IMG/VR virus record: IMGVR_UViG_3300030102_006960
Location: 64,001 to 128,000 of that record
From: a virus
Strand: one strand, 5' to 3'
DNA: 64,000 nt
The position numbers and the translations under genes are program-made. Positions 1 to 56,474 of the stretch are shown here, piece by piece (the stretch's first letter is position 1; the number at the start of each line of letters is the position of its first letter). The notes under the pieces were generated by a model. That model searched no databases and was not told where the DNA came from. It saw only the letters and a program-made list of their open reading frames with translations.

Positions 1-1116
1 GCTTACACTCCAGTATTTTAAATCCTCTTCTATTTTAGATAATTGGCTTTCACTAATTTTTATTTTTCTTTTTTTAGATTCATCTAAGGAAACAGAAGGC
101 ATATATGTCCTTTTAATATCATTACCTACAGTAGTTAAGGCACTCCAGTGATTACTTTCACTATCTATTTTACCTGCGACATTTTTACCTGTACAATTTG
201 ATGTTCCACCATAGACATTATCATTGCTCCCTATCGTAGTTATTGCGGAGTTAACTTTTTTTAGAGTGTTTGAACCACAAGTATAAGGCTCAACAATATA
301 AATTTTATTTAAGTCTTTTTCACTATTGTTGATTTCGTTTGCCACCCTATCTGAGTGTCTACCACCAGCACTAAACATAACTACATAAGGATTATTATGT
401 TTTTTTATTTCTGATAAAGGTGAGGGTACATGTGATAGGGTTATTACATTAAAATTATCACCTAAAGCAGACTGTAACATTTCACCTTGTTGTTGGTGTG
501 AATACTTATATTTTTTACCACATTCACCTGCAGAAGAACAACCTGCAATAAAAATTACCGGTTCTTTTTCAGTATTTAGTTCCTCTTTTAATATTTTTTT
601 AATACTTTCATTTAAAGTTCGTAATACATCTGCATCTGTATCAAAAACCTCATCATAATCTCCTTGATGTATTTCATCATCTATGTGAGTTGTTAATTCT
701 GGATTCACCACATCACCATAATCATATTCCCAATCCATTGCGTCTAGGGCAGTATCACTATCATCTGACACGACAGTATTTTTGATTTCTCTCCAAGAAT
801 TTACGTTTTGATAAAATTTAATTTGATACTCTTTCATTTGTGGTACAACTACTTCTTCTATAGAAGCAAAATCACCATCTTTATTTAAAACATTGAATAA
901 ATTATTTTTATATAAAGCATAAAAATACATAAGTATATCCTTATCTAATGCTAAGTTACCTATTATATTAGAATCCATTAAAAGGTTAATATCAGTTTTT
1001 TTATTACTTTTTACTCTACCATCCAAAGTTCTATATATTTCTCTTAATACTGCAATCTCAAAATTATTGAACGGTTGGGTATCAGTAGTATTTCTTATAA
1101 TGTCTTTTAATTCCAT
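1..1116 (-). CDS. Partial (runs off window) modular protein: acidic paralogue-family domain + alpha/beta-hydrolase-like module + further module
   Basis: Not in ORF track; hand translation from ATG at 1116 is open to position 1 (MELKDIIRNTTDTQPFNNFEIAVLREIY...). Contains VIFIAG, VVMFSAGG (nucleophile-elbow-like), IYIVEP and HWSAL. Modules separated by TLNESIKKILKEE and SLDESKKRKIKISESQLSKIEE. ATATTTAT on - strand at 1153-1160. Confidence 0.8.
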   Translation of the reverse strand, partial: MELKDIIRNTTDTQPFNNFEIAVLREIYRTLDGRVKSNKKTDINLLMDSNIIGNLALDKDILMYFYALYKNNLFNVLNKDGDFASIEEVVVPQMKEYQIKFYQNVNSWREIKNTVVSDDSDTALDAMDWEYDYGDVVNPELTTHIDDEIHQGDYDEVFDTDADVLRTLNESIKKILKEELNTEKEPVIFIAGCSSAGECGKKYKYSHQQQGEMLQSALGDNFNVITLSHVPSPLSEIKKHNNPYVVMFSAGGRHSDRVANEINNSEKDLNKIYIVEPYTCGSNTLKKVNSAITTIGSNDNVYGGTSNCTGKNVAGKIDSESNHWSALTTVGNDIKRTYMPSVSLDESKKRKIKISESQLSKIEEDLKYWSVS

Positions 1117-9427: not shown

Positions 9428-9448
9428 AAAAAAATAAAAACAAAAGAT

Positions 9449-9985
9449 ATGAGTCAACACGATGAAACTAAAAAAATATTAGAATTAATTAGAGAAGGTG
9501 GTAGTAAATCTATTTTAAATAAAACTTTAATTACTGAACAGGATTTAAACGTTCAAAAACAAGATGAAAATTCTTTAGATCCTACAGAAATGAAAGAACA
9601 AGAAAGATTGTTTAGAGATACTGTAACACAAAGAGTTAAATTTAACCAAATGAAACTTTATCCAAAAGCACAAAATGTAGAATGGAGTGGAGAATTTACA
9701 GATAATGCAGTAGAATGGTTTTATTCGTTAGACGATACACAAGGTGTTTACGTCACTACAGAGTTATTACAACTTAGAGAAGACACAATGAAACTTTTAC
9801 AAAAATTAATTGCATATTATAAAACATGGTCAGATGATTGGGCTAAAAGAATTGCGGAAGAATATGAAAATCAACAAACTGATGAAGAAAACGCAGAAGA
9901 AGGTCCAGACAGTATGAACTCGCCAGGATTTGGGGAAGAAGGTGAAGGAGAATCCATGCCTAACCCAACCGAAGAAAATGCTTAA
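9449..9985 (+). CDS. Hypothetical acidic protein
   Basis: Clean ORF in operon; LIRE/LITE motifs near N-terminus. Confidence 0.7.
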   Translation: MSQHDETKKILELIREGGSKSILNKTLITEQDLNVQKQDENSLDPTEMKEQERLFRDTVTQRVKFNQMKLYPKAQNVEWSGEFTDNAVEWFYSLDDTQGVYVTTELLQLREDTMKLLQKLIAYYKTWSDDWAKRIAEEYENQQTDEENAEEGPDSMNSPGFGEEGEGESMPNPTEENA

Positions 9986-10358
9986 AATTAATATAGACTT
10001 AAAGGCGATTTTAATATTAGGTTTAGCAGTAGCTTTAGTCCTTAGTTTTATATTTAGACCTAGTGTACCTATAGAGGAATATGAAGAAGAAATTAGTGTT
10101 TTACAAAAACAAAATGAAAAACTACTAATATCAAACGATAGTATTATTAAAGCAAATATAAAATTACAAAAAGAAATTGATGTTATTTTATATGCAATTG
10201 ACAGTACTAAAGTTGTTCTTAGAAAAACAGAAGATAAATTAAAAGAATTAGAAAGAAAAAGAAATGAAGTATCTAATATCGTTGATAATATGGATAGCGA
10301 TGGTGTCACCAACACTCTCTCAGACTATCTCCAAAGGAGAAATCAGAACAATCGTTGA
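9978..10358 (+). CDS. N-terminal TM + coiled-coil protein (i-spanin-like architecture)
   Basis: Start at ATG 9978 (MLKINIDLKAILILGLAVALVLSFIF) followed by heptads. Confidence 0.55.
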   Translation: MLKINIDLKAILILGLAVALVLSFIFRPSVPIEEYEEEISVLQKQNEKLLISNDSIIKANIKLQKEIDVILYAIDSTKVVLRKTEDKLKELERKRNEVSNIVDNMDSDGVTNTLSDYLQRRNQNNR

Positions 10359-13118: not shown

Positions 13119-13142
13119 ATGCTTTCATTATATTTATATGTA

Positions 13143-13907
13143 ATGGAACTAAATTTTAAAAATATATTATTAGAATCGATTATTGATGAATTAGAAACTT
13201 TAACTAGAATGGATAAGGCAGTTCTTAAGTTTATCCACCAATCTATGAGTAAAGAAAAATTTAACCACAGTATTGGTAAAAATACTTATGATATGGAAGC
13301 AAGTGATGCATTAAGAATCAATGATTTAATTAATGTTTTTGGGTTAAAAGATTATGACTATGTTTTTAAAATGTGGAATTTTTATAAAAGGTTTGGGGAT
13401 GTCTTATTTGATGATGAGATATTTGATGACTTTTCATATAGTATAGAAGACTATGATGATGCAACTAAACTTATAATTGCAAAATATTATTTAGATAATT
13501 TAGTAGGAAGGGAAATTTATCCGGGATGGACAATAGAAATGATGGAAGATCCAATTACTATGGTTGAAGAGAATTTAATGACTATGCTTGTAACTAATGG
13601 TAACTATGAACACATATTTCTATATTTATTAGATTTGAAAGGTAATAAATTGGCGGGTGATATTATTACTCACAATGAAGATGGTTTAGGTGCGTATTTT
13701 TCAGAGGATATTAAAGTGTCTAAATATGCAGATATTATTGACACCATTGAAATACCAAACCCAATAAAACGTTTAAATAATTTAAGTGATGAAAGTTTGG
13801 AAAAATATTTTAATTTCATTATTGAAAATTTACGAGATGAAATTGAAGAGTGGGATGAAGATATCCGACACTATTATGAAAATATTAAACCAGAAAGAGA
13901 AGGTTAA
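13143..13907 (+). CDS. Acidic protein, member of the local paralogue family
   Basis: Start moved to ATG 13143 after ATATTTAT (13130); MELNFKNILLES...TLTRMDKAVLKFIH. Confidence 0.7.
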   Translation: MELNFKNILLESIIDELETLTRMDKAVLKFIHQSMSKEKFNHSIGKNTYDMEASDALRINDLINVFGLKDYDYVFKMWNFYKRFGDVLFDDEIFDDFSYSIEDYDDATKLIIAKYYLDNLVGREIYPGWTIEMMEDPITMVEENLMTMLVTNGNYEHIFLYLLDLKGNKLAGDIITHNEDGLGAYFSEDIKVSKYADIIDTIEIPNPIKRLNNLSDESLEKYFNFIIENLRDEIEEWDEDIRHYYENIKPEREG

Positions 13908-27211: not shown

Positions 27212-28234
27212 ATGACAAAAGATTATTATAAAGTTTTAGGGGTTGATAAAAATGTTGATGACTCAACACTCAAAAAAGCTTATAGGAAACTATCTAAAAA
27301 GTATCATCCAGACGTAAATAATGAGCCTGCGGCGGAAGAAAAATTTAAAGAAGTAGCAGAAGCGTATGATGTTTTATCAGATTCTCAAAAAAGACAAAAC
27401 TATGATACATATGGTACACCTGATGGTAGAGGGGGTAACCCATTTGGTGGTGGGTTTGATATGGGCGATATCTTTAGTTCTTTTTTCGGTGAAGAGGGAA
27501 ATCCATTTGGTGGTAGATCTCAAAGACCAAAAAGATTTAAAGGTACAGATATTAGAGTTAATATGAAATTATCTTTAGAAGATATCCATAGTGGTATATA
27601 TAAGAAGATAAAATATAAAAGGAATGATTCATGTAATGATTGTAATTCTCAAGGAGGAGAAACATCGACATGTAACGCATGTAGAGGTACAGGACAAGTG
27701 GTTAGAATTACTAGTACCCCATTTGGAAAAATTCAAAATACGACTATTTGTCCAAAATGTAATGGTGAGGGTAGTGTTATAGTAAAACCTTGTAAAAAAT
27801 GTAATGGGTTAGGTGTCAAATTAAAAGAGGAAACCATAGATTTTGAAATCCCTAAAGGTGTTATGGATGGTGAATATATTACCATACGTGGCAAAGGCAA
27901 CTCAATTAAGAGGGGGGTTAGTGGTGATTTAATTATTAATATGGTAGAAATACCTCATAATGTTTTTAAAAGAAATAATCAAGATATACACCAAAGAATT
28001 AAGTTATCATATAAAGACTTAGTTTTGGGTTGTTCTCCAGAATTAGAAACTTTAGACGGTAAAATAAGAATTACCATTAAAGAAGGAACAGATGTTGGGC
28101 ATATACTTAGAGTACCTAAAAAGGGTTTGGAGAGAGCTGGTAACATAGGAGATATGATGGTAGAAGTTTGGGTAGACATCCCTAAAGAAATAAGTAAAGA
28201 AGATAAAATAATAATTGAGTCTTTAAATATTTGA
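27212..28234 (+). CDS. dnaJ: Chaperone DnaJ
   Basis: J domain with HPD, G/F region, four CxxCxGxG-type repeats, C-terminal domain. Confidence 0.95.
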   Translation: MTKDYYKVLGVDKNVDDSTLKKAYRKLSKKYHPDVNNEPAAEEKFKEVAEAYDVLSDSQKRQNYDTYGTPDGRGGNPFGGGFDMGDIFSSFFGEEGNPFGGRSQRPKRFKGTDIRVNMKLSLEDIHSGIYKKIKYKRNDSCNDCNSQGGETSTCNACRGTGQVVRITSTPFGKIQNTTICPKCNGEGSVIVKPCKKCNGLGVKLKEETIDFEIPKGVMDGEYITIRGKGNSIKRGVSGDLIINMVEIPHNVFKRNNQDIHQRIKLSYKDLVLGCSPELETLDGKIRITIKEGTDVGHILRVPKKGLERAGNIGDMMVEVWVDIPKEISKEDKIIIESLNI

Positions 28235-28279: not shown

Positions 28280-28735
28280 ATGGCAAAATTTCAAGAAGTA
28301 TACGAAGAAACGAAAGAGGTGTTTAATACACATATAAATAATAGTGGGATACCTGGATTCGTTAATATTAAGATTCTATCAAATGAATCTTTAAAAGATT
28401 GTTTTGGTCAAGTGACAAAAGCACAAGATATAGTTAAGTTTATGACTGACTACGATGTGATAATTCAAATCAATGAACCTATATTCGATCAGTTAGAAAA
28501 TAAACAAAAAGAATATGTAGTAAAAGATTTATTGGCTCAGATAGTATATAGTTTAGAATCTGATAAATTATCTATAACTAAACCTGACATTACTACATTT
28601 AGCGGTGTTTTAAGACAATATAGTATTGATGAGTACATTGGTATTTGTGAAACTATAAAAACATTACAAGAACAAAAGAAAATACAGGAAGATTTGGCTA
28701 AACAAGCCGCTAAAAAAAATAGTGTAACTGTATAA
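28280..28735 (+). CDS. Putative phage metallopeptidase-fold protein lacking HExxH
   Basis: D..I.INE..F..L...Q...V..L..I...PD...F..V..Y layout, with KDLLAQ where HEL.H is expected. Confidence 0.45.
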   Translation: MAKFQEVYEETKEVFNTHINNSGIPGFVNIKILSNESLKDCFGQVTKAQDIVKFMTDYDVIIQINEPIFDQLENKQKEYVVKDLLAQIVYSLESDKLSITKPDITTFSGVLRQYSIDEYIGICETIKTLQEQKKIQEDLAKQAAKKNSVTV

Positions 28736-39142: not shown

Positions 39143-39574
39143 ATGAAATTTTTAAGAAGATGTTGTGACTCAAAAAGAGAATGTTTAACATATGTTATAA
39201 TATTACTTTGGGTTGGTATTGGTGTATTAGGTACATATTTTGATACTAATTTTAATGAATTAGCTGCTTACTTCATATCATTAACAGGATTTGCAGGAGC
39301 GTATATGTATGGTGAAACCAAAAGAAGTAGCGATGATACCTCTATATTTAAATCGGGTAAATCTAGTAAAAGAGAAATAATAATATATGTAACTGTTGGT
39401 TTATGGTTATTAATTGGTGTATTTACAATTATTAATCATGCAGACTTAATGGGTATGAGTGCATATTTTGCAGCACTTACACCATTTGTTGGTTCGTATA
39501 TAATAGGTGAGACACTTAAAAAAGAAACTGAAGACGAAGACTATGAGGATCAAATTACGGGAGAGCCAATATAG
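39143..39574 (+). CDS. Four-TM membrane protein built from two internal repeats
   Basis: SKRE..Y....LW..IGV...AYF..LT.F.G.Y..GET occurs twice; start after ATATTTAT 39121. Confidence 0.7.
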   Translation: MKFLRRCCDSKRECLTYVIILLWVGIGVLGTYFDTNFNELAAYFISLTGFAGAYMYGETKRSSDDTSIFKSGKSSKREIIIYVTVGLWLLIGVFTIINHADLMGMSAYFAALTPFVGSYIIGETLKKETEDEDYEDQITGEPI

Positions 39575-40157
39575 TAGATTATTAAAAGAAAATGATAAAG
39601 ATTTTCTTGATGGTAGTGTTAACTTTAAAGAGATAGGTAATAAGGTTGATAAGTTTATTATAAAATGTTACAATTTTATGAGGAAACACTACCCTAGTTT
39701 TAATAACTTAAGAAATATACCTACGGTCTCACAAAAGGTGGCACAAGATTTAGCAATACCAAACGCAGTATCTTTAGTTATCTGTTATAACTATCTTTTA
39801 CTATGGGATAAACTCAACCCTAAAAATTATGAGGGAGATTTTAGTGAAATGTTGGGTGAGCCATTAGAGTTTTATGGAGAGTTTGAAGTTGTAGAAGAAA
39901 TTCCTATGAGAGGATATTTAAATGGATACCAAACAGGTAAGTATATAGGATATGCACGTAATGAAGAAGAGTTTTTAGATCAATTAGAAGACGGTGAATA
40001 CTATAATTATGATGTAGATCATAACGATTATATAGACTATCATTCGGCGGATATTGACTGGGAGGTAGATGAGGGATATGTCGATGATCACGTTGCTCAA
40101 AGAGTAGGCGATTTAAGAGATGATTTAATAGATAATGTAGAATTAGTAAATAAATAG
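39543..40157 (+). CDS. Acidic protein, paralogue family, MRIKLRESQYSRLLKE leader
   Basis: Start at ATG 39543; clearly paralogous to the next gene (QYSRLL.EN; LG.P.EF.G). Confidence 0.75.
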   Translation: MRIKLRESQYSRLLKENDKDFLDGSVNFKEIGNKVDKFIIKCYNFMRKHYPSFNNLRNIPTVSQKVAQDLAIPNAVSLVICYNYLLLWDKLNPKNYEGDFSEMLGEPLEFYGEFEVVEEIPMRGYLNGYQTGKYIGYARNEEEFLDQLEDGEYYNYDVDHNDYIDYHSADIDWEVDEGYVDDHVAQRVGDLRDDLIDNVELVNK

Positions 40158-40158
40158 A

Positions 40159-40845
40159 ATGAAAGTAAAATTAACAGAGGAACAATATAGTAGATTACTA
40201 ACTGAGAATACCGGTGATGAATGGGGTAGAGTTAGTAAAACTGTTGATGCTTTCACAATAAAGGTATTCAAACAAATTAGAGACAAAATTCAAAACGGTG
40301 GATTGAAAATGAATTCGGATATTGTAGACTACATAGTGAATAGTTTGGTATTTACACAAGAAGAAGCAATTATTTTAGCTCATAACTTTAAAGTTATGGT
40401 AGATTTTCATTCACAAGATGATTTAAATGAGTTATTGGGTAAACCTATGGAGTTTATGGGTATATGGCAAATACCTACTCACATACCTACAGTTGTTGAA
40501 TTGACAGGTAGAGGATATCCTTCAGGTAGAGTTTACGCAATGGGTAAGACACCAGAAGAAGCATTAAGAACAATTAGAGATGGTGCAGAAGACGATTTTG
40601 AAGTGGGTGATATGAATGAATTGGATTTGGATGCGGTACTGGATGAATTTGATATTGATATTGTAGATGATATATCCCCACAAAAAGGGATGGTACAAAA
40701 TGATTTCTATGAAGATGAGGATGGTCGTGGTAATAAATTTGAGGTTTTACCATATATAAAAGATGATGTTAGTATGGGCGTACAATCACTCCAACACGAC
40801 TTATCGAGAAAAAAAATAAATAATTTATTAAGAAATATAGGATAA
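40159..40845 (+). CDS. Acidic protein, paralogue family, MKVKLTEEQYSRLLTE leader
   Basis: Tandem paralogue of 39543. Confidence 0.75.
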   Translation: MKVKLTEEQYSRLLTENTGDEWGRVSKTVDAFTIKVFKQIRDKIQNGGLKMNSDIVDYIVNSLVFTQEEAIILAHNFKVMVDFHSQDDLNELLGKPMEFMGIWQIPTHIPTVVELTGRGYPSGRVYAMGKTPEEALRTIRDGAEDDFEVGDMNELDLDAVLDEFDIDIVDDISPQKGMVQNDFYEDEDGRGNKFEVLPYIKDDVSMGVQSLQHDLSRKKINNLLRNIG

Positions 40846-46673: not shown

Positions 46674-46705
46674 TAAATTTTTATATATTTATATAAAAAA
46701 ATATT

Positions 46706-47812
46706 TTGTATAAATTAAGAGACTATATAATTGAATCTGAAAATACTGAATTAAGTAAGGTAGACAAAAAAATGTTAACCCTTATTCATAATAAGGTATG
46801 GGAAGAACATGCTGATAATCCTAAATTAAATTATGATATAATAGAAGAATTAAGAAATTTAGATGAAAATTTTTTATACCGTATATATGATTTTTTAAAA
46901 AATATAATGGGGTTTGATGATCCAAAGCAAATAGAGTATTATATAAAATTATTTATAAATAACTTTCAAGAAGACGGAGATTATAATAAACTAACAACAC
47001 AAGGAGAAAATATAATACCCGGCCCTAATTACCACCATCAGGCAGTTGCAAATAATTTAAATCTACCACCTATACTGGTTATAGATATGAAAGAAACTTG
47101 GGATAGAGACATGTCAGTTTTTTATGATATAGTAAATGATGATCATTATGAAGTGGGTACTGAAGATGAAACATTGGGTGCAATAAATGATGCGTTACAA
47201 GATAGATACTATAATTTTAGTGAGGCAGCCCAATTCGAAGGTACTGTGCACGGATTAATAAGTTATTTATATATTGATGATGCAGATAAAAGAATTATTG
47301 CTAGTGAATATGCAGAAGATATAGAATCTAATACTCGTATTAATGATATAATTCGTATGATAAAGGATTATGATAATAGTGATGAAGTTATAAAATTAAT
47401 TAAAAGATATTATCAGTTAGTACAGAATGAAGATGATCCAATGAATAGTGGTATCCCTAAAAAAGTAGAAATGGATCAAATAGAGGATTCTCTAAGGGAA
47501 CGTTTAAGAGAATTAATATATAATCATGAATACAATAAAATGGCTAACTACATTGGTGATTGGTTAATTGATCATGGTTATATAAGACAAAATCAAAAGT
47601 GGGGTGATTATGAATTCACTGAACCCTATTTAAATAAGTGGAAGGAAGTAGATACCAGTAAACTACCAAAGTGGTTAAATTTCGATAGAGAAGAGTTTAT
47701 TGAAGATCAGACTAATATTGATAGGGCAGGTGAATTAAGTAATATAGACGACTATTATGATACGGAAACGATAGATGGTGATACTTATTATATAATACAG
47801 ATAGATTATTAA
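46706..47812 (+). CDS. Acidic protein, paralogue family (subgroup with shared C-terminal domain)
   Basis: TTG start after ATATTTAT 46685; ELSKVDKKML; C-terminal FDREEF...DGDTYYII. Confidence 0.75.
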   Translation: MYKLRDYIIESENTELSKVDKKMLTLIHNKVWEEHADNPKLNYDIIEELRNLDENFLYRIYDFLKNIMGFDDPKQIEYYIKLFINNFQEDGDYNKLTTQGENIIPGPNYHHQAVANNLNLPPILVIDMKETWDRDMSVFYDIVNDDHYEVGTEDETLGAINDALQDRYYNFSEAAQFEGTVHGLISYLYIDDADKRIIASEYAEDIESNTRINDIIRMIKDYDNSDEVIKLIKRYYQLVQNEDDPMNSGIPKKVEMDQIEDSLRERLRELIYNHEYNKMANYIGDWLIDHGYIRQNQKWGDYEFTEPYLNKWKEVDTSKLPKWLNFDREEFIEDQTNIDRAGELSNIDDYYDTETIDGDTYYIIQIDY

Positions 47813-47813
47813 A

Positions 47814-48977
47814 ATGAAATTATTTAAACTATACGAACAAGTAGAAGAAGAACAAAAGGAAACACAAGAACCTAAATTGATTACTCTTACTCCTTTAGAT
47901 AAGAGGTTTCTTAAACTGATGCAAAGTAAAGATTTGGATTGGTCTGATGGTGCAGAGATTTGGAGATTTTTAACTGATACATTATATATTGAGGATATGG
48001 AACTTAAAATGAGATTAACATATCTTTATATGGAACAACTTGTTGATGAGGATGAGGGAGAAACCTACGATGATTTAGAAAAGGTTGATTTAGATATGGA
48101 AAAGATTAACTCTGAATTTGATGACAAACAATTAGCACTAGCAGAATATTTTGACTTACCACCATTTTTAATGGAAGAGGGTGGTTATAGTCACTATGGT
48201 TTAGATCAGTATGAAAACGAAGATGATGGTGGAACATATGCAATAGGTGATGAAGATGAGATGGATGACGCAATGAATGATTACGCACAAAATAGAATAG
48301 ACGATGGTGTTGAATATATGGAAGATTGGTATTTGGAAAATCATTTAGAACCAAACGATTCCGCCATTGAACAATTTGCGGAAGAAGAGGCTGATCATAG
48401 ATTAAGTGATATGACAGATGAAGAGATATTAGAAGAAGCTGGTTATGATAACATGGATGATGCCAAAGAGCAATGGGAAGAAAAAGACAGTGAAAAAGAT
48501 GATATCGAAGAACGTATGAATGACTTAGAGTCGGAAAAAGAGGAGTTAGAATCAGAGCAAGGGGACTTGGATTATGAAGAAGATGAAGATGAGTACAATA
48601 GATTAGAAGAGGAGATAGATTTGAAACAAGAAGAGATTAATGATTTACAAAGTGAGTTAGATGACTTAGAAACTGAGATGGAAAACCTACAAGAAATTTA
48701 TCAAGGAGAATTTGTAGAACAAGCCAAAGATGAGTTAAGAGAAAATTATACCCAAAATACTGTGGATGAAATTAGAAGTGATGGTTTTAGTTATTTTGTT
48801 GATAATCTAGGTTTTGATAGAGAAAGTGCTATAGATAGTTTTTTCTGGTTGGATGAAGATAGTCTCAAAGAATCAATTAAAGATGATGAAGGTTATGAAG
48901 CCTTAGCTAGTTATGATGGCAACTACGATGAAATAAATATGAATGGAGTCCTTTATCTCATAATTAGAACTGATTAA
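47814..48977 (+). CDS. Very acidic protein, paralogue family, internal coiled coil
   Basis: TLTPLDKRFL; LAEYFDLP; YAIGDEDE; LASYDGNYDE...YLIIR. Confidence 0.8.
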   Translation: MKLFKLYEQVEEEQKETQEPKLITLTPLDKRFLKLMQSKDLDWSDGAEIWRFLTDTLYIEDMELKMRLTYLYMEQLVDEDEGETYDDLEKVDLDMEKINSEFDDKQLALAEYFDLPPFLMEEGGYSHYGLDQYENEDDGGTYAIGDEDEMDDAMNDYAQNRIDDGVEYMEDWYLENHLEPNDSAIEQFAEEEADHRLSDMTDEEILEEAGYDNMDDAKEQWEEKDSEKDDIEERMNDLESEKEELESEQGDLDYEEDEDEYNRLEEEIDLKQEEINDLQSELDDLETEMENLQEIYQGEFVEQAKDELRENYTQNTVDEIRSDGFSYFVDNLGFDRESAIDSFFWLDEDSLKESIKDDEGYEALASYDGNYDEINMNGVLYLIIRTD

Positions 48978-49007
48978 TTATAATTCTATTAAGATATTTA
49001 TTCGTAT

Positions 49008-49796
49008 ATGAAGAAGAAGCACATTATTAAATCAGGAAAAAGATTGATTAAGAAAAAAATTAAATCAATCAAAGAAAGTAATCAACCTAAATTTTTATTT
49101 GAGGGCAAGTTAGAAGATTTAAGAAAATCTTGGGCTGAATTTGTCAATGGTGCAAGAAGAGAAGGTAAAGAAACTACTGAAGCAGCAAAGATACTAGCAA
49201 AAATTATTAATAAAAAAGATGTAACTGAAGAAGATAAAAAATTTCTTAAAGAACAATCTAAAGATTTAGCTCGTATAGTGGCATTGATGGGGTTAGGTGC
49301 AGTATCTATGGCACTACCTATTGCTTTAGAAAAAGTTTTGAATAAGTGGAATATAAGTATTATGCCTAATAGTCATAGTGAAGAAGAGGAGGTAGAAGAA
49401 TTAAATGAATCTACAGGTAATCTGTTATATTCTGCGGTTGTGTTAGACGATGATGATCAAGATAACTTAATTATGTTTGTAGATAATTATGTGGATATAC
49501 CATTAAATTGGAAAAAGATTGCTCACCATATGACTATGGGTTTTAAACAACCAGTACCACAACACTTAAGAGATGATATAGGTAAGACAGTACAATTAAC
49601 AGTTAAAGAGATTGGTGTTTCAGAAGACGCAATTGCCGTAAAAGTAGACGGTTATCATACTAATAATAAAATCCCACATATTACTATTGCAATACCTAAA
49701 GATGGTAAACCATATAACTCTAACCTTATTACCGATTGGAAACCTGTAGATGAAGAAATCATTATTAAAGGAAAGGTGAGAGAAATCTATTCTTAA
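49008..49796 (+). CDS. Two-module protein with C-terminal 2H phosphoesterase (tRNA-ligase CPD-like)
   Basis: YSAVVL, HHMTM and PHITIA (two HxT motifs), SN.I..W; joined by EELNES to a helical/hydrophobic N-terminal module. Confidence 0.75.
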   Translation: MKKKHIIKSGKRLIKKKIKSIKESNQPKFLFEGKLEDLRKSWAEFVNGARREGKETTEAAKILAKIINKKDVTEEDKKFLKEQSKDLARIVALMGLGAVSMALPIALEKVLNKWNISIMPNSHSEEEEVEELNESTGNLLYSAVVLDDDDQDNLIMFVDNYVDIPLNWKKIAHHMTMGFKQPVPQHLRDDIGKTVQLTVKEIGVSEDAIAVKVDGYHTNNKIPHITIAIPKDGKPYNSNLITDWKPVDEEIIIKGKVREIYS

Positions 49797-49812
49797 TCAT
49801 ATTTATTAGTAT

Positions 49813-50610
49813 ATGATTAAATTCAAAGACATACTAAAAGAATCCGAAGATTTAGATACGTTAGTTAATAGAAAACTATTGGATATAGTTGCAAAAAGAT
49901 TCGATTTAAATTTTAATTATACTAATTATAGTAAACCAATAATAGATCAGATAAGACAAGAAGGTATTATTACCTTTATGGAAGAGATAATGGCTTTAGA
50001 TTATCAAAAAATTGCGGAATTGTGTTGGTTAATATTTTTAAATGGTTCAATAAATTATTTAACTGATCCTATAAAAACAGATGAAACTTTTTATGTGTAT
50101 GAAATAGGTTACTATGGTGAATTATCAGAAGATGAGGTAGAGATTGATGGTGATTGTGGAGATTGTGACGGAATGGGTACACAAAATAATGACTGTCAAA
50201 CTTGTCAGGGTTCAGGGGAATACGATTATGGTGAAGGTGAGGTAGAGTGTGAAGACTGTGGTGGTGGTGGAGAAGTAGAAGATGACTGTTGGAACTGTGA
50301 AGGGACAGGTATTGATTACTTTCAAGAAACAGAATATCATATAACAGATAATACACTAATATTATATAGTAACGAACCAAATTTAGATAGACCTATAGTG
50401 AATGAAACAAATTTTGAATTGTGGTATGATGAAAATGAGGCACTTTTAATACCAATGCAGGATAATTGGGAAGAGACGGTAAGTAGTTTTGATAGTGATG
50501 ATTTGGAAAGTAAAGAAGGAACAGTTAGTGTGTATTATCCACAAGAAGATATACATTTTGAAAATGCAAGATACAGAACGTATTTTAGAAATTTAATTGA
50601 ACATAGATAA
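49813..50610 (+). CDS. Acidic paralogue-family protein with four CxxCxGxG zinc-finger repeats
   Basis: CGDCDGMG, CQTCQGSG, CEDCGGGG, CWNCEGTG; no J domain. Confidence 0.8.
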   Translation: MIKFKDILKESEDLDTLVNRKLLDIVAKRFDLNFNYTNYSKPIIDQIRQEGIITFMEEIMALDYQKIAELCWLIFLNGSINYLTDPIKTDETFYVYEIGYYGELSEDEVEIDGDCGDCDGMGTQNNDCQTCQGSGEYDYGEGEVECEDCGGGGEVEDDCWNCEGTGIDYFQETEYHITDNTLILYSNEPNLDRPIVNETNFELWYDENEALLIPMQDNWEETVSSFDSDDLESKEGTVSVYYPQEDIHFENARYRTYFRNLIEHR

Positions 50611-51629
50611 TGATAAAGTTTATTAACATAATGGAAGAATACGGTGCAAACTTTAGAAAAGATAATTACACCGCACCAAAATTAGATACTCTAATTAATA
50701 GAAAGTTAATGAATATAATTTCACAAAAATTTGATTTTGATTATTTTAGGGGTGCGGCAGATAAGTGGGGTTGGAGTAGTAAAAGACATATATTTTTTAA
50801 TAGGTATTTCAAAGGAGGGTTAACAAATGACCATGATTTACCATATAATAATATCTATCAATTTATGAAAGATTCGTTATTTTTAGATGAAGATAAAATA
50901 AATGAATTGGCGTTTCTTTTGGCAACTAATTTAAAGGTTAAGGATTGGATGACAGATCCTATTTTAGAACCGTATGATTATTACTATTATGATATTCGCT
51001 ATTATGACGATTATGTAAGTGATGAAGAAGAGGAAGAATGTGAGACTTGTGAAGAATGTGGTGGTAGTGGATATGAAGATGAAGATTGTGGGTATTGTGA
51101 TGGTGAAGGAGAACAAAGATTAGAATGTGGGTATTGTGACGGTGAAGGAAGTTTTAGAGATGATGAAGGAGAAGAAGAACAATGTGACGAATGTAATGGT
51201 GATGGATACGAAGAAGTAGAATGTGATGAATGTCATGGTGATGGTAGATCTGATGAAGATTGTCATTGGTGTGGTGGAGACACAGAGATATGTGAAACTA
51301 TGTATTATAAAGAAATTAGTGAAATGAGAATTAAATTAATATCACCAGTAAAGTTACCATCTCCGGGCACACAAATACGTAATTACTACACTGAGAGTTA
51401 TACTGATTGGAGAGATAAGATTGAGAACGATAAAGGGTTAATTGTTTTAACTGATGAAGTTTTTGATACCGAACAAGATGAATATAATCCAGATAATGAT
51501 AGTTATGAGAGTCCTTTATATGAACAGGCGGATAAAATTAAATATTTTGAAGAGAGTACTCTTAGAAATGAAATGGAGGAGTGGAGATTCGGTCAATTAA
51601 ATCACCCATTTAAATCAGTATTAAGATAA
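50610..51629 (+). CDS. Acidic paralogue-family protein with six CxxCxGxG zinc-finger repeats
   Basis: CEECGGSG, CGYCDGEG x2, CDECNGDG, CDECHGDG, CHWCGG; shares LDTL.NRKL..I..K/RFD with 49813. Confidence 0.8.
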   Translation: MIKFINIMEEYGANFRKDNYTAPKLDTLINRKLMNIISQKFDFDYFRGAADKWGWSSKRHIFFNRYFKGGLTNDHDLPYNNIYQFMKDSLFLDEDKINELAFLLATNLKVKDWMTDPILEPYDYYYYDIRYYDDYVSDEEEEECETCEECGGSGYEDEDCGYCDGEGEQRLECGYCDGEGSFRDDEGEEEQCDECNGDGYEEVECDECHGDGRSDEDCHWCGGDTEICETMYYKEISEMRIKLISPVKLPSPGTQIRNYYTESYTDWRDKIENDKGLIVLTDEVFDTEQDEYNPDNDSYESPLYEQADKIKYFEESTLRNEMEEWRFGQLNHPFKSVLR

Positions 51630-52918
51630 TGAAACTATATAACCTCATATCGGAATCTAATGACAGTAACGTAACGTATACTGAACTAACTCCTATAGAT
51701 AGAAAGTTATTGCAGTTTATGTTAGGAAAAGGTATTAACTATAAGGATGATAAATTAATATATAAATTTATTAAAGAGACGTTGGCGATAGATGATTTAG
51801 AAACACAAATTAGATTAATTAATTTATATAAGTTAAATGCTCATACTGCACAGAAATTAGAAAAAGGTTTTTTAGAAATGGATAAGGTAGTAGATTTAGA
51901 TACTACTGATAGTAACGATTATACTAAAGTATTGGCAGAATTTAAAGGACTACCAGAGACATTTGTTGTTGAAGAATATAGGGGAGATATAAGGGATTAC
52001 TATAACACTTATTTACCAGAATATAGAATTTTTGATGTTGCAAGAAATGGTTATGAGTCCTATCAAATTGCTAGAAATTATGATGAAGCGTGGAACGCAG
52101 CACAAACTAGAGTGTATGATATAATTCAAAGTGAAGGGTACGATGCATTAAATCAAGAATGGTTAATGGGGTACGTAGAACCAGATAAAGAACAAATAGA
52201 GTTATATGTAAGAGAAACTACAGAAGAAAGAGCTAGAGACTACGATGAAGATGAGTTAAGAGAGGAATTGCTGGGTTATAATAGTGAGGACTGGAATGAA
52301 TATGAAGGTGCAGAGGATGACACTAAATTATATAAAGACGAGATAAAAAAATTATCATTAGAAATTCAAGAGAAAGAGTTTAAAAAAGATAATATTGAGT
52401 CAGAATTAATAGTATTAGAAAAAGATATTGAAAGATTAGATTATTATAGTGATGACGAAACTAACTATAGGGATATGGAATATAGTGAAGAGATTGATGA
52501 GTTACAACAACAATATAATAATTACAAACGAATTTTTGACGAATTAGAATTATATTTGGAGGAATCTTATAAAGAATTAGATAAGTTACAAACTAATTTA
52601 GAAGAAAGTAAAACCTTATTAGAAAAATATAGTGGTGAAAGTCTTATTGAAATGTATATTGAACAAGTAACTGCCGATAGAACAGAAGAATTCGTAGATG
52701 ATATAGACAGTTTTTTAGATTATGTAAGTATGGAAATTTCTGAAGCATATGAGTACGGTTATATAGACATTGATTCTGATGAGGTTATGGAAGGAGCAGT
52801 CAGTGATGATGGGTTAGGACATTGGTTAGCGGGATACGATGGAGGATATGATGAAGAAACAATTACGCAAGAAGATGGTAATTATTCCGATACTTTTTAT
52901 TTGTTTAGGAATCATTAA
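51629..52918 (+). CDS. Very acidic protein, paralogue family, internal coiled coil
   Basis: ELTPIDRKLL; LAEFKGLP; LAGYDGGYDE...FYLFR. Confidence 0.8.
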   Translation: MKLYNLISESNDSNVTYTELTPIDRKLLQFMLGKGINYKDDKLIYKFIKETLAIDDLETQIRLINLYKLNAHTAQKLEKGFLEMDKVVDLDTTDSNDYTKVLAEFKGLPETFVVEEYRGDIRDYYNTYLPEYRIFDVARNGYESYQIARNYDEAWNAAQTRVYDIIQSEGYDALNQEWLMGYVEPDKEQIELYVRETTEERARDYDEDELREELLGYNSEDWNEYEGAEDDTKLYKDEIKKLSLEIQEKEFKKDNIESELIVLEKDIERLDYYSDDETNYRDMEYSEEIDELQQQYNNYKRIFDELELYLEESYKELDKLQTNLEESKTLLEKYSGESLIEMYIEQVTADRTEEFVDDIDSFLDYVSMEISEAYEYGYIDIDSDEVMEGAVSDDGLGHWLAGYDGGYDEETITQEDGNYSDTFYLFRNH

Positions 52919-52967
52919 TTGACATTTAAATAAAATATTATTATATTTAATCAAAATTAATAATAAT

Positions 52968-53174
52968 ATGTCGGAAAGAGTAAAACATCCTAAACATTAT
53001 AATAGAGGAATTGAAATGTGGGACTATTCACATTCACATAATCTAGATTTTTTTGAAGGTAATATAGTAAAATATGTTACAAGATGGAAAGATAAAAATG
53101 GTATAGAAGATCTCTATAAGGCAAAACAGTATTTAGATAAACTTATTTCACTAAATGAAGTTTTAGGAAAATAA
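52968..53174 (+). CDS. DUF3310 family protein
   Basis: VKHPKHY..GIE, GNIVKY..R...KNG.EDL.KA..YL. Confidence 0.85.
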   Translation: MSERVKHPKHYNRGIEMWDYSHSHNLDFFEGNIVKYVTRWKDKNGIEDLYKAKQYLDKLISLNEVLGK

Positions 53175-53198
53175 ACATATTTATTTCCAAAAAAAGTT

Positions 53199-53531
53199 AT
53201 GGAAAAATATTTTATTAACGAAGTTTTGGAAATGGATTGTGATGATAATGGAAATCTAACTGTTAAATTTGTTTTAGAAGAAGATGAAGAAAATACATAT
53301 AGGTTGTTAGAAACAAATGAATATTATTATTGGGTTGATGAAAACTATAACGATGAAATAAGTGGTGAACCACTTACAAATGATTGGGATGAAGAAGAAT
53401 ACCATTCAGACGAAGGTTTTAATTTTGTACAATGGAAAGATTATAACCACAGTGAAGAAGTTGTTATAGATTTTATAAAAGATAGTTTTTTAAGTAAAGA
53501 AGAATTACCAAATAAAATAAAAATAGAATGA
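53199..53531 (+). CDS. Hypothetical acidic protein
   Basis: ATATTTAT at 53177. Confidence 0.65.
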   Translation: MEKYFINEVLEMDCDDNGNLTVKFVLEEDEENTYRLLETNEYYYWVDENYNDEISGEPLTNDWDEEEYHSDEGFNFVQWKDYNHSEEVVIDFIKDSFLSKEELPNKIKIE

Positions 53532-53728
53532 AAAGATTAACAATACATTTAAAAAGAGTCAATAAAAAAACAGAGGTTATTGAAGGTAAGAGTAAAAGTA
53601 AAATTTTTAACACTTTATCTTATAGAGTTAAAGATGAAGATGAAGCAAATATTATAGTAAATAACATCAACGAAAACGAAAAGCCACGTAACAATGTAAA
53701 AAAGTGGTACTTATCCGGTATTAGATAA
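53528..53728 (+). CDS. Small hypothetical protein
   Basis: ATGA-coupled to the upstream gene. Confidence 0.55.
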   Translation: MKRLTIHLKRVNKKTEVIEGKSKSKIFNTLSYRVKDEDEANIIVNNINENEKPRNNVKKWYLSGIR

Positions 53729-53768
53729 TTTATTAAGTTTTTTATATATTTATATATAAAAGACGCAA

Positions 53769-54188
53769 ATGAGCAATATTGACAAATTAAGACAACTAGT
53801 TGAGGATTTATCACTACGAGATCAAGATTTAATACAAAAAGTTCAACATTTCGATATTTTAGAACACGTATTTTTAACTTCTCCTCGTCCTATGGCTATT
53901 ATGGCAGAAGATTGGAAATATCTGTTAGTAAATGAGTTGTTTGCTGAACTTTATGGGTTTGAAAACCCTAATGATATGGTGGGGAAAAGACATTATGAAT
54001 TATTCCTTAAAATTCCTGAAAGACCTATTGATGAAATTAATAGTAAGTTAAATAATGAAGGGAGTTGGCAAGGTGTTATAAAATGTCCACATAAATCAGG
54101 ACAAGATTTTATATCTAAAATTACATTAAAAAAAGTTGATGGTAAGGATGTATTACTTTGTACTTGTGAAGTAGTAAAAGATAATTAA
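53769..54188 (+). CDS. Stand-alone PAS domain protein
   Basis: VNELFAELYGF...MVGK, WQG.....HKSG; short N-terminal coil. Confidence 0.75.
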   Translation: MSNIDKLRQLVEDLSLRDQDLIQKVQHFDILEHVFLTSPRPMAIMAEDWKYLLVNELFAELYGFENPNDMVGKRHYELFLKIPERPIDEINSKLNNEGSWQGVIKCPHKSGQDFISKITLKKVDGKDVLLCTCEVVKDN

Positions 54189-54190
54189 TA

Positions 54191-54532
54191 ATGGGTAATA
54201 ACGGAAATCAAAATGGGTGGAATGAATATTCACGACTTGTCTTAGCAGAATTAGAGAAATTGAATAATAAAGTAGATTCACTAACTGAGGAAAATAACGA
54301 TATTAAACAAGAACTATCTAAATTAGAACAATTTAAAGACGAAATATCTTCATTAAAAGATTGGAAAGGTAATGTAGATGAAGTATCTTCACCTACACAA
54401 TTAAAAGAATTACAAAAAGAAGTTAGTGATTTAAAAACATTTAAAACTATGTCTACTACTGTATGGGTGGTAGTACAGATTATTTTTGGTATTGTCGCAA
54501 CTTTATTTGGGCTTTATTTAAAATCTAGTTGA
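54191..54532 (+). CDS. Coiled-coil protein with C-terminal TM (holin/hemolysin-like architecture)
   Basis: NGWNEYSRLVL.EL..L start, heptads, terminal hydrophobic helix. Confidence 0.6.
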   Translation: MGNNGNQNGWNEYSRLVLAELEKLNNKVDSLTEENNDIKQELSKLEQFKDEISSLKDWKGNVDEVSSPTQLKELQKEVSDLKTFKTMSTTVWVVVQIIFGIVATLFGLYLKSS

Positions 54533-56394
54533 GGTTTAGTAACTAAGTTTACTTTTAGATTAACCCCATTTTCTTTACCCCACTCTTCAAACGCAATAGC
54601 GTGAGGTTCTCTATCTTCATACATTTCTATTAACTCCGTATTTGGAAACCTATTTAATAGACTTACAATAGTATTTAACTTACTATTTAAAGTATCTCCA
54701 TCATCTTTATAATGGTATTCATCAAAAACAATATCATTACTGTGTAATATATCTTCTACTTGATCTTTCTGATTTGGAAGTCTACCAGTTAACATAACCA
54801 CATAAGTGTTAGGTGTATCACTTTCAATAACATAATCACTTATTGTAGATTTAATTGGTTGAATATCGAATACCTCAGTATCTAAAGATTCTCTTTTACT
54901 CCACCAACCTCTATGTGGATATGGTGAACCAGTTTTTTCTTCCCATTCTCTTTTACCTTCTTCTGCGTGTGGTGTGTCCATCAACGTACCATCAAAGTCA
55001 AAGATTGCAATCTTGTTAATATCTAAAGGGTCTCCTACTGTTTCCATAATTAATCTGAATTTACTTACTGTTACACATTCGTTTAAATCTAATACACTAC
55101 CTTGTACCCAAGGGGTGAAATCTTCTAACGGAGTTTTATGTTTTTCTCCGTTATATGTAAAAGTAATCATTTTTTCGTCAAAATCCAAATCTCTATCTAA
55201 AAATTCTAATTTTCCGTCACTACTAGTCCATTTTTTCATCCAACTATGATGATTAAACCCACTTTTTTTAAGGAATGATTCAAACTCCCTTTTTTGTTTT
55301 ATTTTTTCTGCGTAATTTTCATCATCCTCTAATTTATGTAATTTTCGCTCTAGTTCCGCATTTAATACTTCTTTAACATATTTTGCACCTGCTTCATCAA
55401 TAAAGTCACCACCCCAATATGCATCATCTAAATCACAATTACTACAAGGGTTTAGTTCTTCTTCTAAATCTTGTAAATCACTAAATGTAAAAATACCATG
55501 TTCTTTAATTTTCTCTAATAAATCTTCATATGGAATCTTTATGGTGTATGGTCCATAAGAAAATTGACTGATATAAGGAACGTAAGTAATTTCATCTTCA
55601 TAGATTTCTTTTACTTGTTCTGTTCTAAATCTACCAGTTTCACCATTTAATGCCCAAACATATTCATTTACTACATCGTCTTTATCATCTTTAGTAAGAA
55701 AGTCATCTAAATATTCGTATAGTCCACCATCGTTGTCCATACCACCATATTTAGGATCATCAACATAAACACCTACTATATCACCTATCTTTTTTATAAT
55801 ATCTAATGTCTTATCATTATACATTACATAGTTGAATTCTTCATGATCATAATCTTCTGAACCTGCTCCGTCATCACCAATTCTCCACGCCTGCTCTCCA
55901 ACACCAGATATAAATTGTTCAAAGTCGTCACTATCACCCGCAATTTCTAATCCATCTCTTTCAAAATTAACACAAGGTGTTTTTGGATATCCGTTAGAAT
56001 TACAATAATAAAAATTGTCACCTAATAAAGTCTTAACTAATTTATTGTGTTCATCACTAGGATAATAAACTTCTAATACTTCATCTTCATCACCATCTTT
56101 TTCTTTAAGTCTCTCAACAAATTTATATAATGCATCTCCTCTATTAACATTTTCAATAGTTTCCCATGGAATTCTATATTTATTATCCCCAAACTCATCA
56201 TTTCCAACCTTAACTGCGGATTTGGTATCTTTATTTAAAACCCATAATGCGTACCATTGTTTAGCTTCTTCATTGGTAAAGGCTAATGTAGTTTTTAACC
56301 ACTTTATCACCTTTGCTTTACTAGGGTAAGTACCAACAAACTCTTTATTGATAAAATCTATTATTTTTATTTCTAATTTAGAAAATTTGTCCAT
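54514..56394 (-). CDS. Paralogue-family acidic protein fused to a HAD phosphatase (Swiss-army-knife RNA-repair type)
   Basis: C-terminal FDFDGTL.DTP, GWWS, MLTGR, K, MYEDR..H; linker DLNECVTVSKFRLIME; ATATTTAT on - strand at 56413-56420. Confidence 0.8.
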   Translation of the reverse strand: MDKFSKLEIKIIDFINKEFVGTYPSKAKVIKWLKTTLAFTNEEAKQWYALWVLNKDTKSAVKVGNDEFGDNKYRIPWETIENVNRGDALYKFVERLKEKDGDEDEVLEVYYPSDEHNKLVKTLLGDNFYYCNSNGYPKTPCVNFERDGLEIAGDSDDFEQFISGVGEQAWRIGDDGAGSEDYDHEEFNYVMYNDKTLDIIKKIGDIVGVYVDDPKYGGMDNDGGLYEYLDDFLTKDDKDDVVNEYVWALNGETGRFRTEQVKEIYEDEITYVPYISQFSYGPYTIKIPYEDLLEKIKEHGIFTFSDLQDLEEELNPCSNCDLDDAYWGGDFIDEAGAKYVKEVLNAELERKLHKLEDDENYAEKIKQKREFESFLKKSGFNHHSWMKKWTSSDGKLEFLDRDLDFDEKMITFTYNGEKHKTPLEDFTPWVQGSVLDLNECVTVSKFRLIMETVGDPLDINKIAIFDFDGTLMDTPHAEEGKREWEEKTGSPYPHRGWWSKRESLDTEVFDIQPIKSTISDYVIESDTPNTYVVMLTGRLPNQKDQVEDILHSNDIVFDEYHYKDDGDTLNSKLNTIVSLLNRFPNTELIEMYEDREPHAIAFEEWGKENGVNLKVNLVTKPQLDFK

Positions 56395-56474
56395 AAAGTT
56401 AAATTTATATCTATAAATATTAAAAATAAAGTAATAAATTTGGATAATTAAAAAAAATATTATACTTTTATGGT

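What the first reader, a model, noticed from the sequence alone, without database searches (positions are those of the whole stretch)
46706..56394. Family of ~10 acidic paralogues sharing one N-terminal domain but carrying different payloads
Seen: a ~70-aa pattern, L(T/S)x(L/I/V)(D/E/N)(K/R)xxLxxI...Ixx(F/W)(L/I/M)xxx(L/M)x(L/F/I)...xxL(Y/F/W)xxN, recurs at 46706, 47814, 49813, 50610, 51629 and 56394(-), and more loosely at 13143, 39543, 40159 and 1116(-). A DGD(F/Y)-like tail is shared by 1116, 39543 and 46706. After this domain come different modules: Zn-finger arrays, acidic coiled coils, a HAD phosphatase, a hydrolase. Most members sit behind ATATTTAT or in operons that start with it. Inference: the shared domain is an addressing or docking module (for capsid loading, ejection or a common host target) onto which effectors are swapped, analogous to the paralogous head-protein families of other giant phages.
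Basis: partly seen in the sequence, partly recalled or inferred. Interest (0 to 1): 0.78.

Follow-up and report, generated by a model that had tools for sequence, protein, structure and literature searches.

The report
Shared N-terminal leader-domain on phage proteins
Seven genes of an uncultured marine T4-related jumbo phage share a previously undescribed N-terminal leader plus three-helix domain in front of four different protein bodies. The leader looks like the T4 signal that loads proteins into the phage head, so these may be packaged cargo, but that is not shown.

Summary
Profile comparisons show a real, homologous N-terminal module of about 80 residues in seven of the ten named genes:
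- three acidic coiled-coil proteins (46706, 47814, 51629; "T" type);
- two proteins with DnaJ-type zinc fingers (49813, 50610; "Z" type);
- the gene at 13143;
- the HAD-phosphatase protein at 56394(-).

1116(-) is doubtful. 39543 and 40159 are not members; they carry a different leader.

The module has two parts. A roughly 10-residue leader ends in an [I/L]-x-E that is present in every sequence examined. A three-helix bundle follows.

The window is a fragment of a jumbo phage. A near-identical longer record carries a T4-type portal, gp21 prohead protease and gp23 capsid gene. An eighth family member sits directly after the capsid gene.

The leader resembles the T4 capsid-targeting sequence, and T4 gp21 cuts after L/I-x-E. 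ATATTTAT is a general promoter-like box that also precedes head and tail genes.

My leading reading (about 45%) is that this is a head-targeting module on diverse cargo. No virion data exist, so this remains inference. The module matched no Pfam, PHROG or solved-structure family.

The parts
46706..47812 (+). T-type member 1 (368 aa, TTG start). It has the leader, the three-helix N-domain with a ~25-residue insert, an LPPxL segment, a short helical region and a C-terminal DGDTYY tail.
   Evidence: hhalign to 47814 family E 7.8e-6. N-terminus to 51629 family E 1.6e-6. 1e-21 against the joint profile.
47814..48977 (+). T-type member 2 (387 aa, 34% D+E). Leader and N-domain followed by an acidic coiled coil.
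   Evidence: BLASTP to 51629 2e-20. hhalign 98.9%.
51629..52918 (+). T-type member 3 (429 aa). Leader is residues 1-12. N-domain helices are 22-33, 41-51 and 57-75. A long helical hairpin spans 219-333.
   Evidence: AlphaFold2 model with mean pLDDT 87.2 and pTM 0.64; leader pLDDT below 50. 62 metagenomic orthologues.
49813..50610 (+). Z-type member 1 (265 aa). Leader and N-domain, then four invariant CxxCxGxG fingers inserted in a beta-rich body.
   Evidence: Alignment A4 invariant Cys/Gly columns. hhalign of the finger region to the phage's own DnaJ-like protein 93.7%, E 1.9e-7. AlphaFold2 pLDDT 77.
50610..51629 (+). Z-type member 2 (339 aa). N-domain with a ~35-residue insert, and six to seven CxxCxGxG fingers.
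   Evidence: BLASTP to 49813 7e-16. hhalign 99.7%.
13143..13907 (+). Distant member (254 aa from the Met at 13143). Leader MELNFKNILLES and the N-domain, followed by a body of unknown type. It lies directly upstream of an endolysin-like gene.
   Evidence: Family profile versus joint profile 91.5%, E 8.7e-7. Six-frame profile hit. ATATTTAT at 13130-13137.
54514..56394 (-). Distant member (626 aa). N-domain without the typical leader (residues 1-70), an unknown middle part, and a C-terminal HAD phosphatase of the RNA-repair type.
   Evidence: N-terminal profile versus joint profile 89.9%, E 1.7e-6. PF10307 HAD_SAK_1 at 37.9 bits against a cut-off of 25.6.
1..1116 (-). Doubtful member (602 aa from the Met at 1116; it runs off the window). 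The leader lacks [IL]-x-E. Relatives carry a form about 175 residues shorter.
   Evidence: hhalign P 0.004, probability 8.5%, right register. Length forms.
39543..40845 (+). Two genes (39543-40157 and 40159-40845) that are NOT members. They are paralogues of each other and have a different leader, MK(I/V)KLTE(S/E)QY.
   Evidence: Pair E 8e-17. No signal against the joint profile. The same leader is seen at nine ORFs.
49008..49796 (+). 2H-phosphoesterase-like gene embedded in the array. It has two HxT motifs and only a sub-threshold Pfam hit. In one metagenomic lineage it is fused in frame to the Z-type gene.
   Evidence: PF08302 E 0.0033, below cut-off. Fusion proteins P0065 and P0066.
46685..46692 (+). 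ATATTTAT promoter-like box before the 46706-47814 unit. Equivalent boxes lie at 48994, 49799 and 13130 (+), and at 56413-56420 and 1153-1160 (-).

Best explanation
The seven genes, plus an eighth in the head-gene module of a near-identical record, carry a homologous two-part N-terminal module.

- **Leader.** A flexible leader of about 10 residues with consensus M-x-K-(F/L)-x-(D/N)-I-(I/L)-x-E.
- **Bundle.** A compact three-helix bundle follows. Helix 1 reads LTxxD(K/R)KxLxxI, helix 2 reads IxxFLxxxL, and helix 3 ends in LYxxN.

I propose that this module sends the proteins into the assembling prohead of a T4-type jumbo phage. The leader would act like the T4 capsid-targeting sequence and would be removed by the gp21-type prohead protease after the conserved [I/L]-x-E. 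The helical domain would give extra docking to the acidic scaffold core, or would stay on the mature protein. The attached bodies would then be head-internal, possibly ejected, cargo or core components. These bodies are the acidic coiled coil, the DnaJ-type zinc-finger module, the RNA-repair-type HAD phosphatase and unknown bodies.

**Shown:**
- the homology of the module;
- its two-part anatomy;
- the different bodies behind it;
- the T4-type head genes, including the protease, in the lineage;
- the position of one member next to the capsid gene;
- the promoter-like box shared with head and tail genes.

**Inferred:** targeting, cleavage and packaging.
For: **Homology**
- T versus Z N-termini: 97.3%, E 2e-11.
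- 13143: E 8.7e-7. 56394: E 1.7e-6. Control: E 0.21.
- Only these seven stand out among the 170 ORFs.

**Anatomy**
- Both AlphaFold2 models place helices on the aligned motifs.
- Both leave residues 1-11 or 1-12 at pLDDT below 50.

**Leader**
- [ILVM]-x-E ends at residue 8-11 in 28 of 28 non-redundant family sequences. The same is true of 8% of other ORFs.
- It is the only such motif conserved across subfamilies.
- The T4 capsid-targeting sequence is MKTYQEFIAE (PMC8442874).
- In T4, residues 4 and 7 govern targeting and residues 8 and 10 govern processing. gp21 cuts after L/I-X-E (PMC9026906).
- In the Z-type leader MIKFKDILKE, residues 4, 7, 8 and 10 are the conserved ones.

**Lineage**
- The first ORF of this record matches G001 at 71.4 kb.
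- G001 carries Portal_T4 at 3e-77, Peptidase_S77 at 6e-26 and Gp23 at 5e-72. A very acidic scaffold-like gene lies between the protease and capsid genes.

**Head-module member**
- The gene right after gp23 in G001 matches the 13143 family at 94.5%, E 7.5e-8. It matches the joint profile at 80%, E 1.4e-5.

**Promoter-like box**
- ATATTTAT precedes the portal, protease, that member and the tail genes in G001. It also precedes the family's transcription units.

**Internalised leader**
- In the natural fusions P0065 and P0066 the module is internal. There the leader part no longer matches the profile: the match starts at profile position 11.
Against: - There is no virion proteome, no cleavage data and no cultured relative carrying the family.
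- The leader match to T4 covers only about 10 residues. L/I-x-E is a very short motif in a proteome rich in I, L and E.
- The proteins are strongly acidic, whereas the T4 internal proteins IPI-III are basic.
- 56394 lacks the typical leader.
- The array lies among tRNA and RNA-repair genes, not head genes.
- ATATTTAT also precedes a DnaB-like helicase gene, so it may not be a late-only signal.
- The head module was found in a sister record. This 44%-complete fragment does not contain it.
Confidence: 0.45

Rival explanations
1. The module is a docking domain for an intracellular complex and has nothing to do with the capsid. It would bring several proteins to one phage or host partner. A likely candidate is a tRNA or RNA repair and maintenance assembly active during infection.
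For: - The array is interleaved with a 2H-phosphoesterase-like gene (49008).
- It lies near a HAD_SAK_1 phosphatase that itself carries the module, and near a CCA-adding enzyme, a tRNA island and a tmRNA (notes).
- One metagenomic lineage fuses the 2H gene to the Z-type gene (P0065), which hints at joint function.
Against: - This does not explain the flexible leader with its invariant [I/L]-x-E.
- It does not explain the member next to the capsid gene.
- It does not explain the promoter-like box shared with structural genes.
- The T and Z bodies show no RNA-enzyme features.
Confidence: 0.2
2. These are ordinary diverged paralogues made by tandem duplication and domain accretion, and they are not packaged. 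The conserved N-terminus would be a shared structural or oligomerisation element. The proteins could be acidic host-takeover or anti-defence proteins, for example DNA mimics.
For: - Tandem arrangement.
- Extreme acidity: pI 4.05-4.5 and up to 34% D+E.
- Fast divergence and recombinant forms such as P0072.
- Rarity of the family: 30 hits in 1.84 billion representative proteins.
Against: - The leader is more conserved than the domain it precedes across sequences only 20-30% identical. This is unexpected for a mere structural remnant.
- A member sits in the head module.
Confidence: 0.25
3. The recurring pattern is a compositional artefact of an AT-rich proteome rich in I, L, K, N, D and E.
For: - Single-sequence searches failed to link the groups.
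- Three of the ten named members do fall at noise level.
Against: - Reversed-sequence decoys never scored better than E 0.1, whereas members scored 1e-3 to 1e-5.
- Profile-profile E-values reach 2e-11.
- AlphaFold2 puts helices on the aligned motifs in both families.
Confidence: 0.02

Closest known systems
Capsid-targeting sequence (CTS) of phage T4 internal proteins IPI-III and Alt
   Same: - A short N-terminal leader of about 10 residues ends in L/I-x-E.
- It sits on otherwise unrelated proteins of a phage that has a gp21-type prohead protease.
- Hydrophobic or aromatic residues at positions 4 and 7-8 and Glu at 10 are the conserved positions (PMC8442874, PMC9026906).
   Different: - Here the leader is followed by a conserved three-helix domain of about 70 residues. 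T4 cargo has no such domain.
- The cargo is acidic, not basic.
- No sequence homology to T4 internal proteins was detected.
- Targeting and cleavage are untested.
Paralogous inner-head and ejection protein families with long propeptides in phiKZ, 201phi2-1 and SPN3US (for example PF12699; SPN3US gp53/gp54)
   Same: - Jumbo phage with several paralogues.
- The N-termini stay conserved while the rest diverges.
- In those phages, N-terminal regions of 100 residues or more are thought to target proteins into the prohead, and a T4-related protease cuts after Glu (PMC5694885).
   Different: - No match to PF12699 or any PHROG.
- Those phages use S/A/G-x-E, whereas the motif here is I/L-x-E.
- This phage has T4-type gp20, gp21 and gp23, not a phiKZ-type head.
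- No conserved second cleavage motif lies at the end of the domain.
DnaJ/Hsp40 cysteine-rich (CXXCXGXG) zinc-finger domain
   Same: The Z-type bodies carry four to seven CxxCxGxG repeats. These align with the cysteine-rich domain of the phage's own DnaJ-like protein at 27212.
   Different: There is no J domain and no DnaJ_C match. The Pfam score is below the cut-off (17.6 against 32.7 bits).

Membership tests
T4-type CTS-bearing head-internal proteins | N-terminal leader of about 10 residues ending in L/I-x-E | tested here: met
   28 of 28 non-redundant family sequences have [ILVM]-x-E ending at residue 8-11. The 56394 subfamily and 1116 lack it.
T4-type CTS-bearing head-internal proteins | The phage encodes a gp21-type (Peptidase_S77) prohead protease and a T4-type head | tested here: met
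   Found in the sister record G001: PF03420 at 91 bits, PF07230 and PF07068. Not present in this 44%-complete fragment.
T4-type CTS-bearing head-internal proteins | The leader is cleaved by the prohead protease and the protein is present in mature heads | not testable with these tools
   This needs virion mass spectrometry or a cleavage assay. No cultured relative carries the family.
T4-type CTS-bearing head-internal proteins | Sequence relationship to known internal proteins | tested here: inconclusive
   Pfam and PHROG scans of all members gave no head or internal-protein family. The known T4 cargo proteins are themselves unrelated to one another.
phiKZ/SPN3US head paralogue family A (PF12699) | Match to PF12699 | tested here: not met
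   No Pfam hit at E <= 0.1 for any member.
DnaJ cysteine-rich domain (PF00684), Z-type bodies | Four CXXCXGXG repeats forming two zinc centres | tested here: met
   Invariant C115/C118/G120/G122, C128/C131/G133/G135, C146/C149/G151/G153 and C159/C162/G164/G166 in alignment A4. hhalign to the phage DnaJ-like protein 93.7%. The Pfam score is below the cut-off.
HAD_SAK_1 (PF10307), body of 56394(-) | Match above Pfam's gathering score | tested here: met
   37.9 bits against a cut-off of 25.6, residues 518-609. PHROG 415, the polynucleotide kinase family, at 7e-7.

The most novel reading that the evidence does not exclude
Marine T4-related jumbo phages of Bacteroidota use a modular head-loading tag. 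The tag is a cleavable CTS-like leader fused to a three-helix docking domain. With it they pre-package a changeable set of effectors and deliver them with the DNA at the moment of infection. The effectors would include an RNA-repair phosphatase, a J-domain-less DnaJ-type zinc-finger module and acidic coiled-coil proteins. This would extend the T4 internal-protein principle to enzymatic RNA-repair cargo and to a folded targeting domain.
Probability: 0.15. Interest if true: 0.8.

Novelty: new variant of a known kind. Interest (0 to 1): 0.55.

Why it matters
The module defines a protein family that matched no Pfam, PHROG or solved-structure entry. It had only 30 significant hits among 1.84 billion representative proteins. 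It is confined to an uncultured marine phage lineage that probably infects Bacteroidota.

If the targeting reading holds, three things follow:
- It gives a sequence rule for predicting head-internal or ejected proteins in far-T4 jumbo phages that cannot be cultured.
- It shows that T4-style leader targeting reaches well beyond enterobacterial phages.
- It points to RNA-repair and chaperone-like cargo carried into the cell.

The leader-plus-domain tag could also be tried as a packaging handle.

If the reading fails, the finding is still a clean example of domain accretion in a tandem paralogue array.

Tried and rejected
- **GenBank phage searches.** Megablast and tblastn with the array and with 51629, 50610, P0087 and P0091 found no match.
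- **IMG/VR and metagenome scans.** They gave one long relative and six short ones.
- **Fold searches.** Foldseek against PDB and BFVD, and VIA-align wide, were run on both models.
  - For the T model only generic coiled-coil hairpins appeared.
  - For the Z model nothing exceeded Z 4.2, apart from weak DnaJ zinc-finger rows.
  - The N-domain alone was not folded and searched, so I make no claim that its fold is new.
- **ESM Atlas.** No usable hit.
- **PDB sequence search of 56394.** No hit.
- **Second copy of the domain inside 56394 (residues 190-265).** Suggested by weak HMM hits, but not supported by hhalign (E 0.04).
- **DGD(F/Y) tail.** It occurs after the domain in 46706 and 1116 only, and the motif occurs in 5 proteins overall. 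This is too little to count.
- **Conserved second cleavage motif at the end of the domain.** None found.
- **Complex prediction.** I did not run a job, because no specific binding partner could be named with reason.


Full report
**Setting**

The window is bases 64001-128000 of a single 145,802-bp virus record. The record has 28% G+C, and 155 of its 170 ORFs lie on one strand. IMG/VR classes it as a linear fragment, and CheckV puts it at 44% complete, so the whole genome is likely above 300 kb.

Relatives come from marine metagenomes. In some relatives, genes with a type IX secretion sorting domain (PF18962) are inserted between 47814 and 49008. This points to a Bacteroidota host.

PHROG hits in the record include a UvsX-like recombinase, a DnaB-like helicase, ribonucleotide reductase, a baseplate wedge protein, an SbcC-like protein and endolysin-like proteins.

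**Is the shared N-terminal pattern real?**

Plain BLASTP finds only three pairs: 47814~51629, 49813~50610 and 39507~40159. Single-sequence phmmer does not join the groups.

Orthologues from six syntenic loci allowed profile work.
- Full-length hhalign links 46706 to 47814 (E 7.8e-6) and to 51629. These three form a 'T' family.
- A T N-terminal HMM was searched against all ORFs plus their reversed decoys. Its four best non-self domain hits were 50610, 49813, 13119 and 56394, each at the N-terminus. The best decoys scored E 0.1 or worse.

I then sent the five-family N-terminal alignment (A2) to the exhaustive HMMER search of 1.84 billion representative proteins. Only 30 proteins reached E <= 0.001. 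Apart from fragments, they fall into these groups:
- T-type proteins;
- Z-type proteins;
- two fusions of a 2H domain with the Z type (P0065, P0066);
- one N-domain joined to a type IX sorting tail (P0067);
- one Z/T chimera (P0072);
- one unrelated repeat protein (P0071).

With these more distant sequences the result became clear.
- T versus Z N-termini gave probability 97.3% and E 2e-11 over 70 columns. The added sequences were picked with a mixed profile, which biases this somewhat. Their class was assigned from the independent C-terminal body.
- The 13143 family gave 91.5% and E 8.7e-7 against the joint profile.
- The 56394 N-terminus gave 89.9% and E 1.7e-6.
- The N-terminus of 49008, used as a control, gave E 0.21.

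Scanning all 170 ORFs against the joint profile singled out exactly these seven. A six-frame search of both records gave the five core members plus 13143.

For the other named members:
- 1116(-) aligns co-linearly, but only at P 0.004.
- 39543 and 40159 show nothing.

**Anatomy**

The alignment and the two AlphaFold2 models agree (51629: pLDDT 87.2; 49813: pLDDT 77.2). The layout is:
- residues 1-11 or 1-12 are a low-confidence leader;
- three helices then fall on the conserved motifs (51629: 22-33, 41-51, 57-75; 49813: 17-29, 52-59, 64-77);
- family-specific inserts lie between helix 1 and helix 2.

The bodies behind the module differ.
- The T proteins have a mixed alpha/beta region, a long acidic helical hairpin and a small C-terminal sheet.
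- The Z proteins have four to seven invariant CxxCxGxG fingers. These are related to the cysteine-rich domain of the phage's own DnaJ-like protein.
- 56394 ends in a HAD_SAK_1 phosphatase.
- The body of 13143 is unknown.

No fold search gave a specific match.

**The leader**

The most conserved part of the module is the first ten residues, with consensus M-x-K-(F/L)-x-(D/N)-I-(I/L)-x-E.
- An [ILVM]-x-E ends at residue 8-11 in all 28 non-redundant sequences. Among other ORFs the figure is 8%.
- It is the only such motif conserved across subfamilies.
- In the fused proteins P0065 and P0066 the module is internal. There the leader part no longer matches the profile.

**Link to head assembly**

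The first ORF of this record has the same N-terminal 40 residues as the ORF at 71.4 kb of a 198-kb sister record, G001. Proteins in the shared region are mostly 73-100% identical.

G001 carries a T4-type head module in T4 gene order:
- portal (PF07230, 3e-77);
- two small proteins;
- gp21-type protease (PF03420, 6e-26);
- a very acidic repeat protein with twelve [IL]-x-E sites;
- major capsid protein (PF07068, 5e-72).

The next gene (9328-10218) is a further member of the N-domain family. It matches the 13143 family at 94.5% and E 7.5e-8, and the joint profile at 80% and E 1.4e-5.

Among cultured phages, the closest capsid proteins include those of Flavobacterium phages, at 42% identity.

In T4, unrelated internal proteins enter the prohead through a 10-residue N-terminal capsid-targeting sequence, MKTYQEFIAE.
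- Residues 4 and 7 of that sequence matter for targeting, and residues 8 and 10 for processing.
- gp21 cuts after L/I-X-E (PMC8442874, PMC9026906, PMC3012670).
- Jumbo phages such as SPN3US use longer N-terminal propeptides on paralogous head proteins (PMC5694885).

The leader here has its conserved residues at just those positions.

**Promoter-like box**

ATATTTAT occurs 77 times in the record. Of these, 35 lie within 45 nt upstream of an ORF start on the coding strand, in a genome that is 95% coding.

It precedes the family's transcription units. In G001 it precedes the portal, the protease, the head-module member and many tail genes. It therefore marks a large gene class that includes structural genes. 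It is not specific to the family, and it also precedes a helicase gene.

**Reading**

The module is real and is joined to at least five body types (four in this window plus the head-module member in G001). Several facts make head targeting the best single explanation, at about 45%:
- the CTS-like, exposed and strongly conserved leader;
- the gp21-type protease in the lineage;
- the member next to the capsid gene;
- the box shared with structural genes.

None of this is direct evidence. Against it stand the acidity of the proteins, their position among RNA-repair and tRNA genes, and the 2H-Z fusion. These keep two alternatives alive: an intracellular docking role, and unpackaged effector paralogues.

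**Earlier scan notes**

A first-reader note of this scan on another genome describes the same array. I did not test that record.

Noticed in passing
window 16849, 17261, 39543, 40159, 41402; record positions 120, 2560, 61016, 143624: A second recurrent N-terminal leader, MK(I/V)K(L/I)(T/S)E(S/E)Q(Y/L)xx(L/I), opens about nine otherwise different ORFs. It has an [IL]-x-E at residues 5-7. One of the ORFs is an endolysin or peptidase-like protein (17261). It may be a second targeting or processing signal.
   Followed up: partly
window 28280-28735: A putative phage metallopeptidase (PF18894, 9e-12) starts MAKFQEVYEE. This is even closer to the T4 capsid-targeting sequence MKTYQEFIAE. Other small acidic ORFs with similar starts are at 53199 and at record position 23909.
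   Followed up: partly
L003 2172-3719; L008 4182-7319: In some relatives a gene with MAM and PKD domains and a type IX secretion sorting tail is inserted between the 47814 and 49008 orthologues. This is a variable moron-like insertion and a pointer to a Bacteroidota host.
   Followed up: partly
proteins P0065, P0066, P0067, P0072 (metagenomic): Natural rearrangements of the array are seen. One is the 2H-phosphoesterase gene fused in frame to the Z-type gene. One is a Z-type N-domain joined to a type IX sorting tail. One is an 85-residue chimera of a Z-type N-terminus and a T-type C-terminus. I could not tell real recombinants from assembly errors.
   Followed up: no
G001 (L015) 5860-7443: The gene between the protease and the major capsid gene encodes a 527-residue protein with 28% D+E. 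It has four to five tandem repeats of about 25 residues (YGGNKGDES...DYMEEG) and twelve [IL]-x-E sites. It is a likely scaffold analogue with no Pfam match.
   Followed up: partly
window-wide; for example 7451, 10738, 12192, 20200, 22299, 28751, 32657, 35322, 45439, 53177, 53746, 58880, 61618: ATATTTAT lies 4-32 nt before start codons of 35 of 170 ORFs, often followed by (A/T)TA(T)AAA. It is a candidate phage promoter, possibly of late type, with very short leaders.
   Followed up: partly
window 1-1116 (-) and loci L019-L024: The 1116(-) protein exists in relatives in a long form (602-632 aa) and a short form (426-430 aa). The two differ by an internal module of about 175 residues.
   Followed up: no
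window 27212-28234: The phage encodes its own DnaJ-like protein with a J-domain start and a CxxCxGxG domain (PHROG 14336, 2e-87). Its zinc-finger region is the nearest relative of the Z-type fingers.
   Followed up: partly
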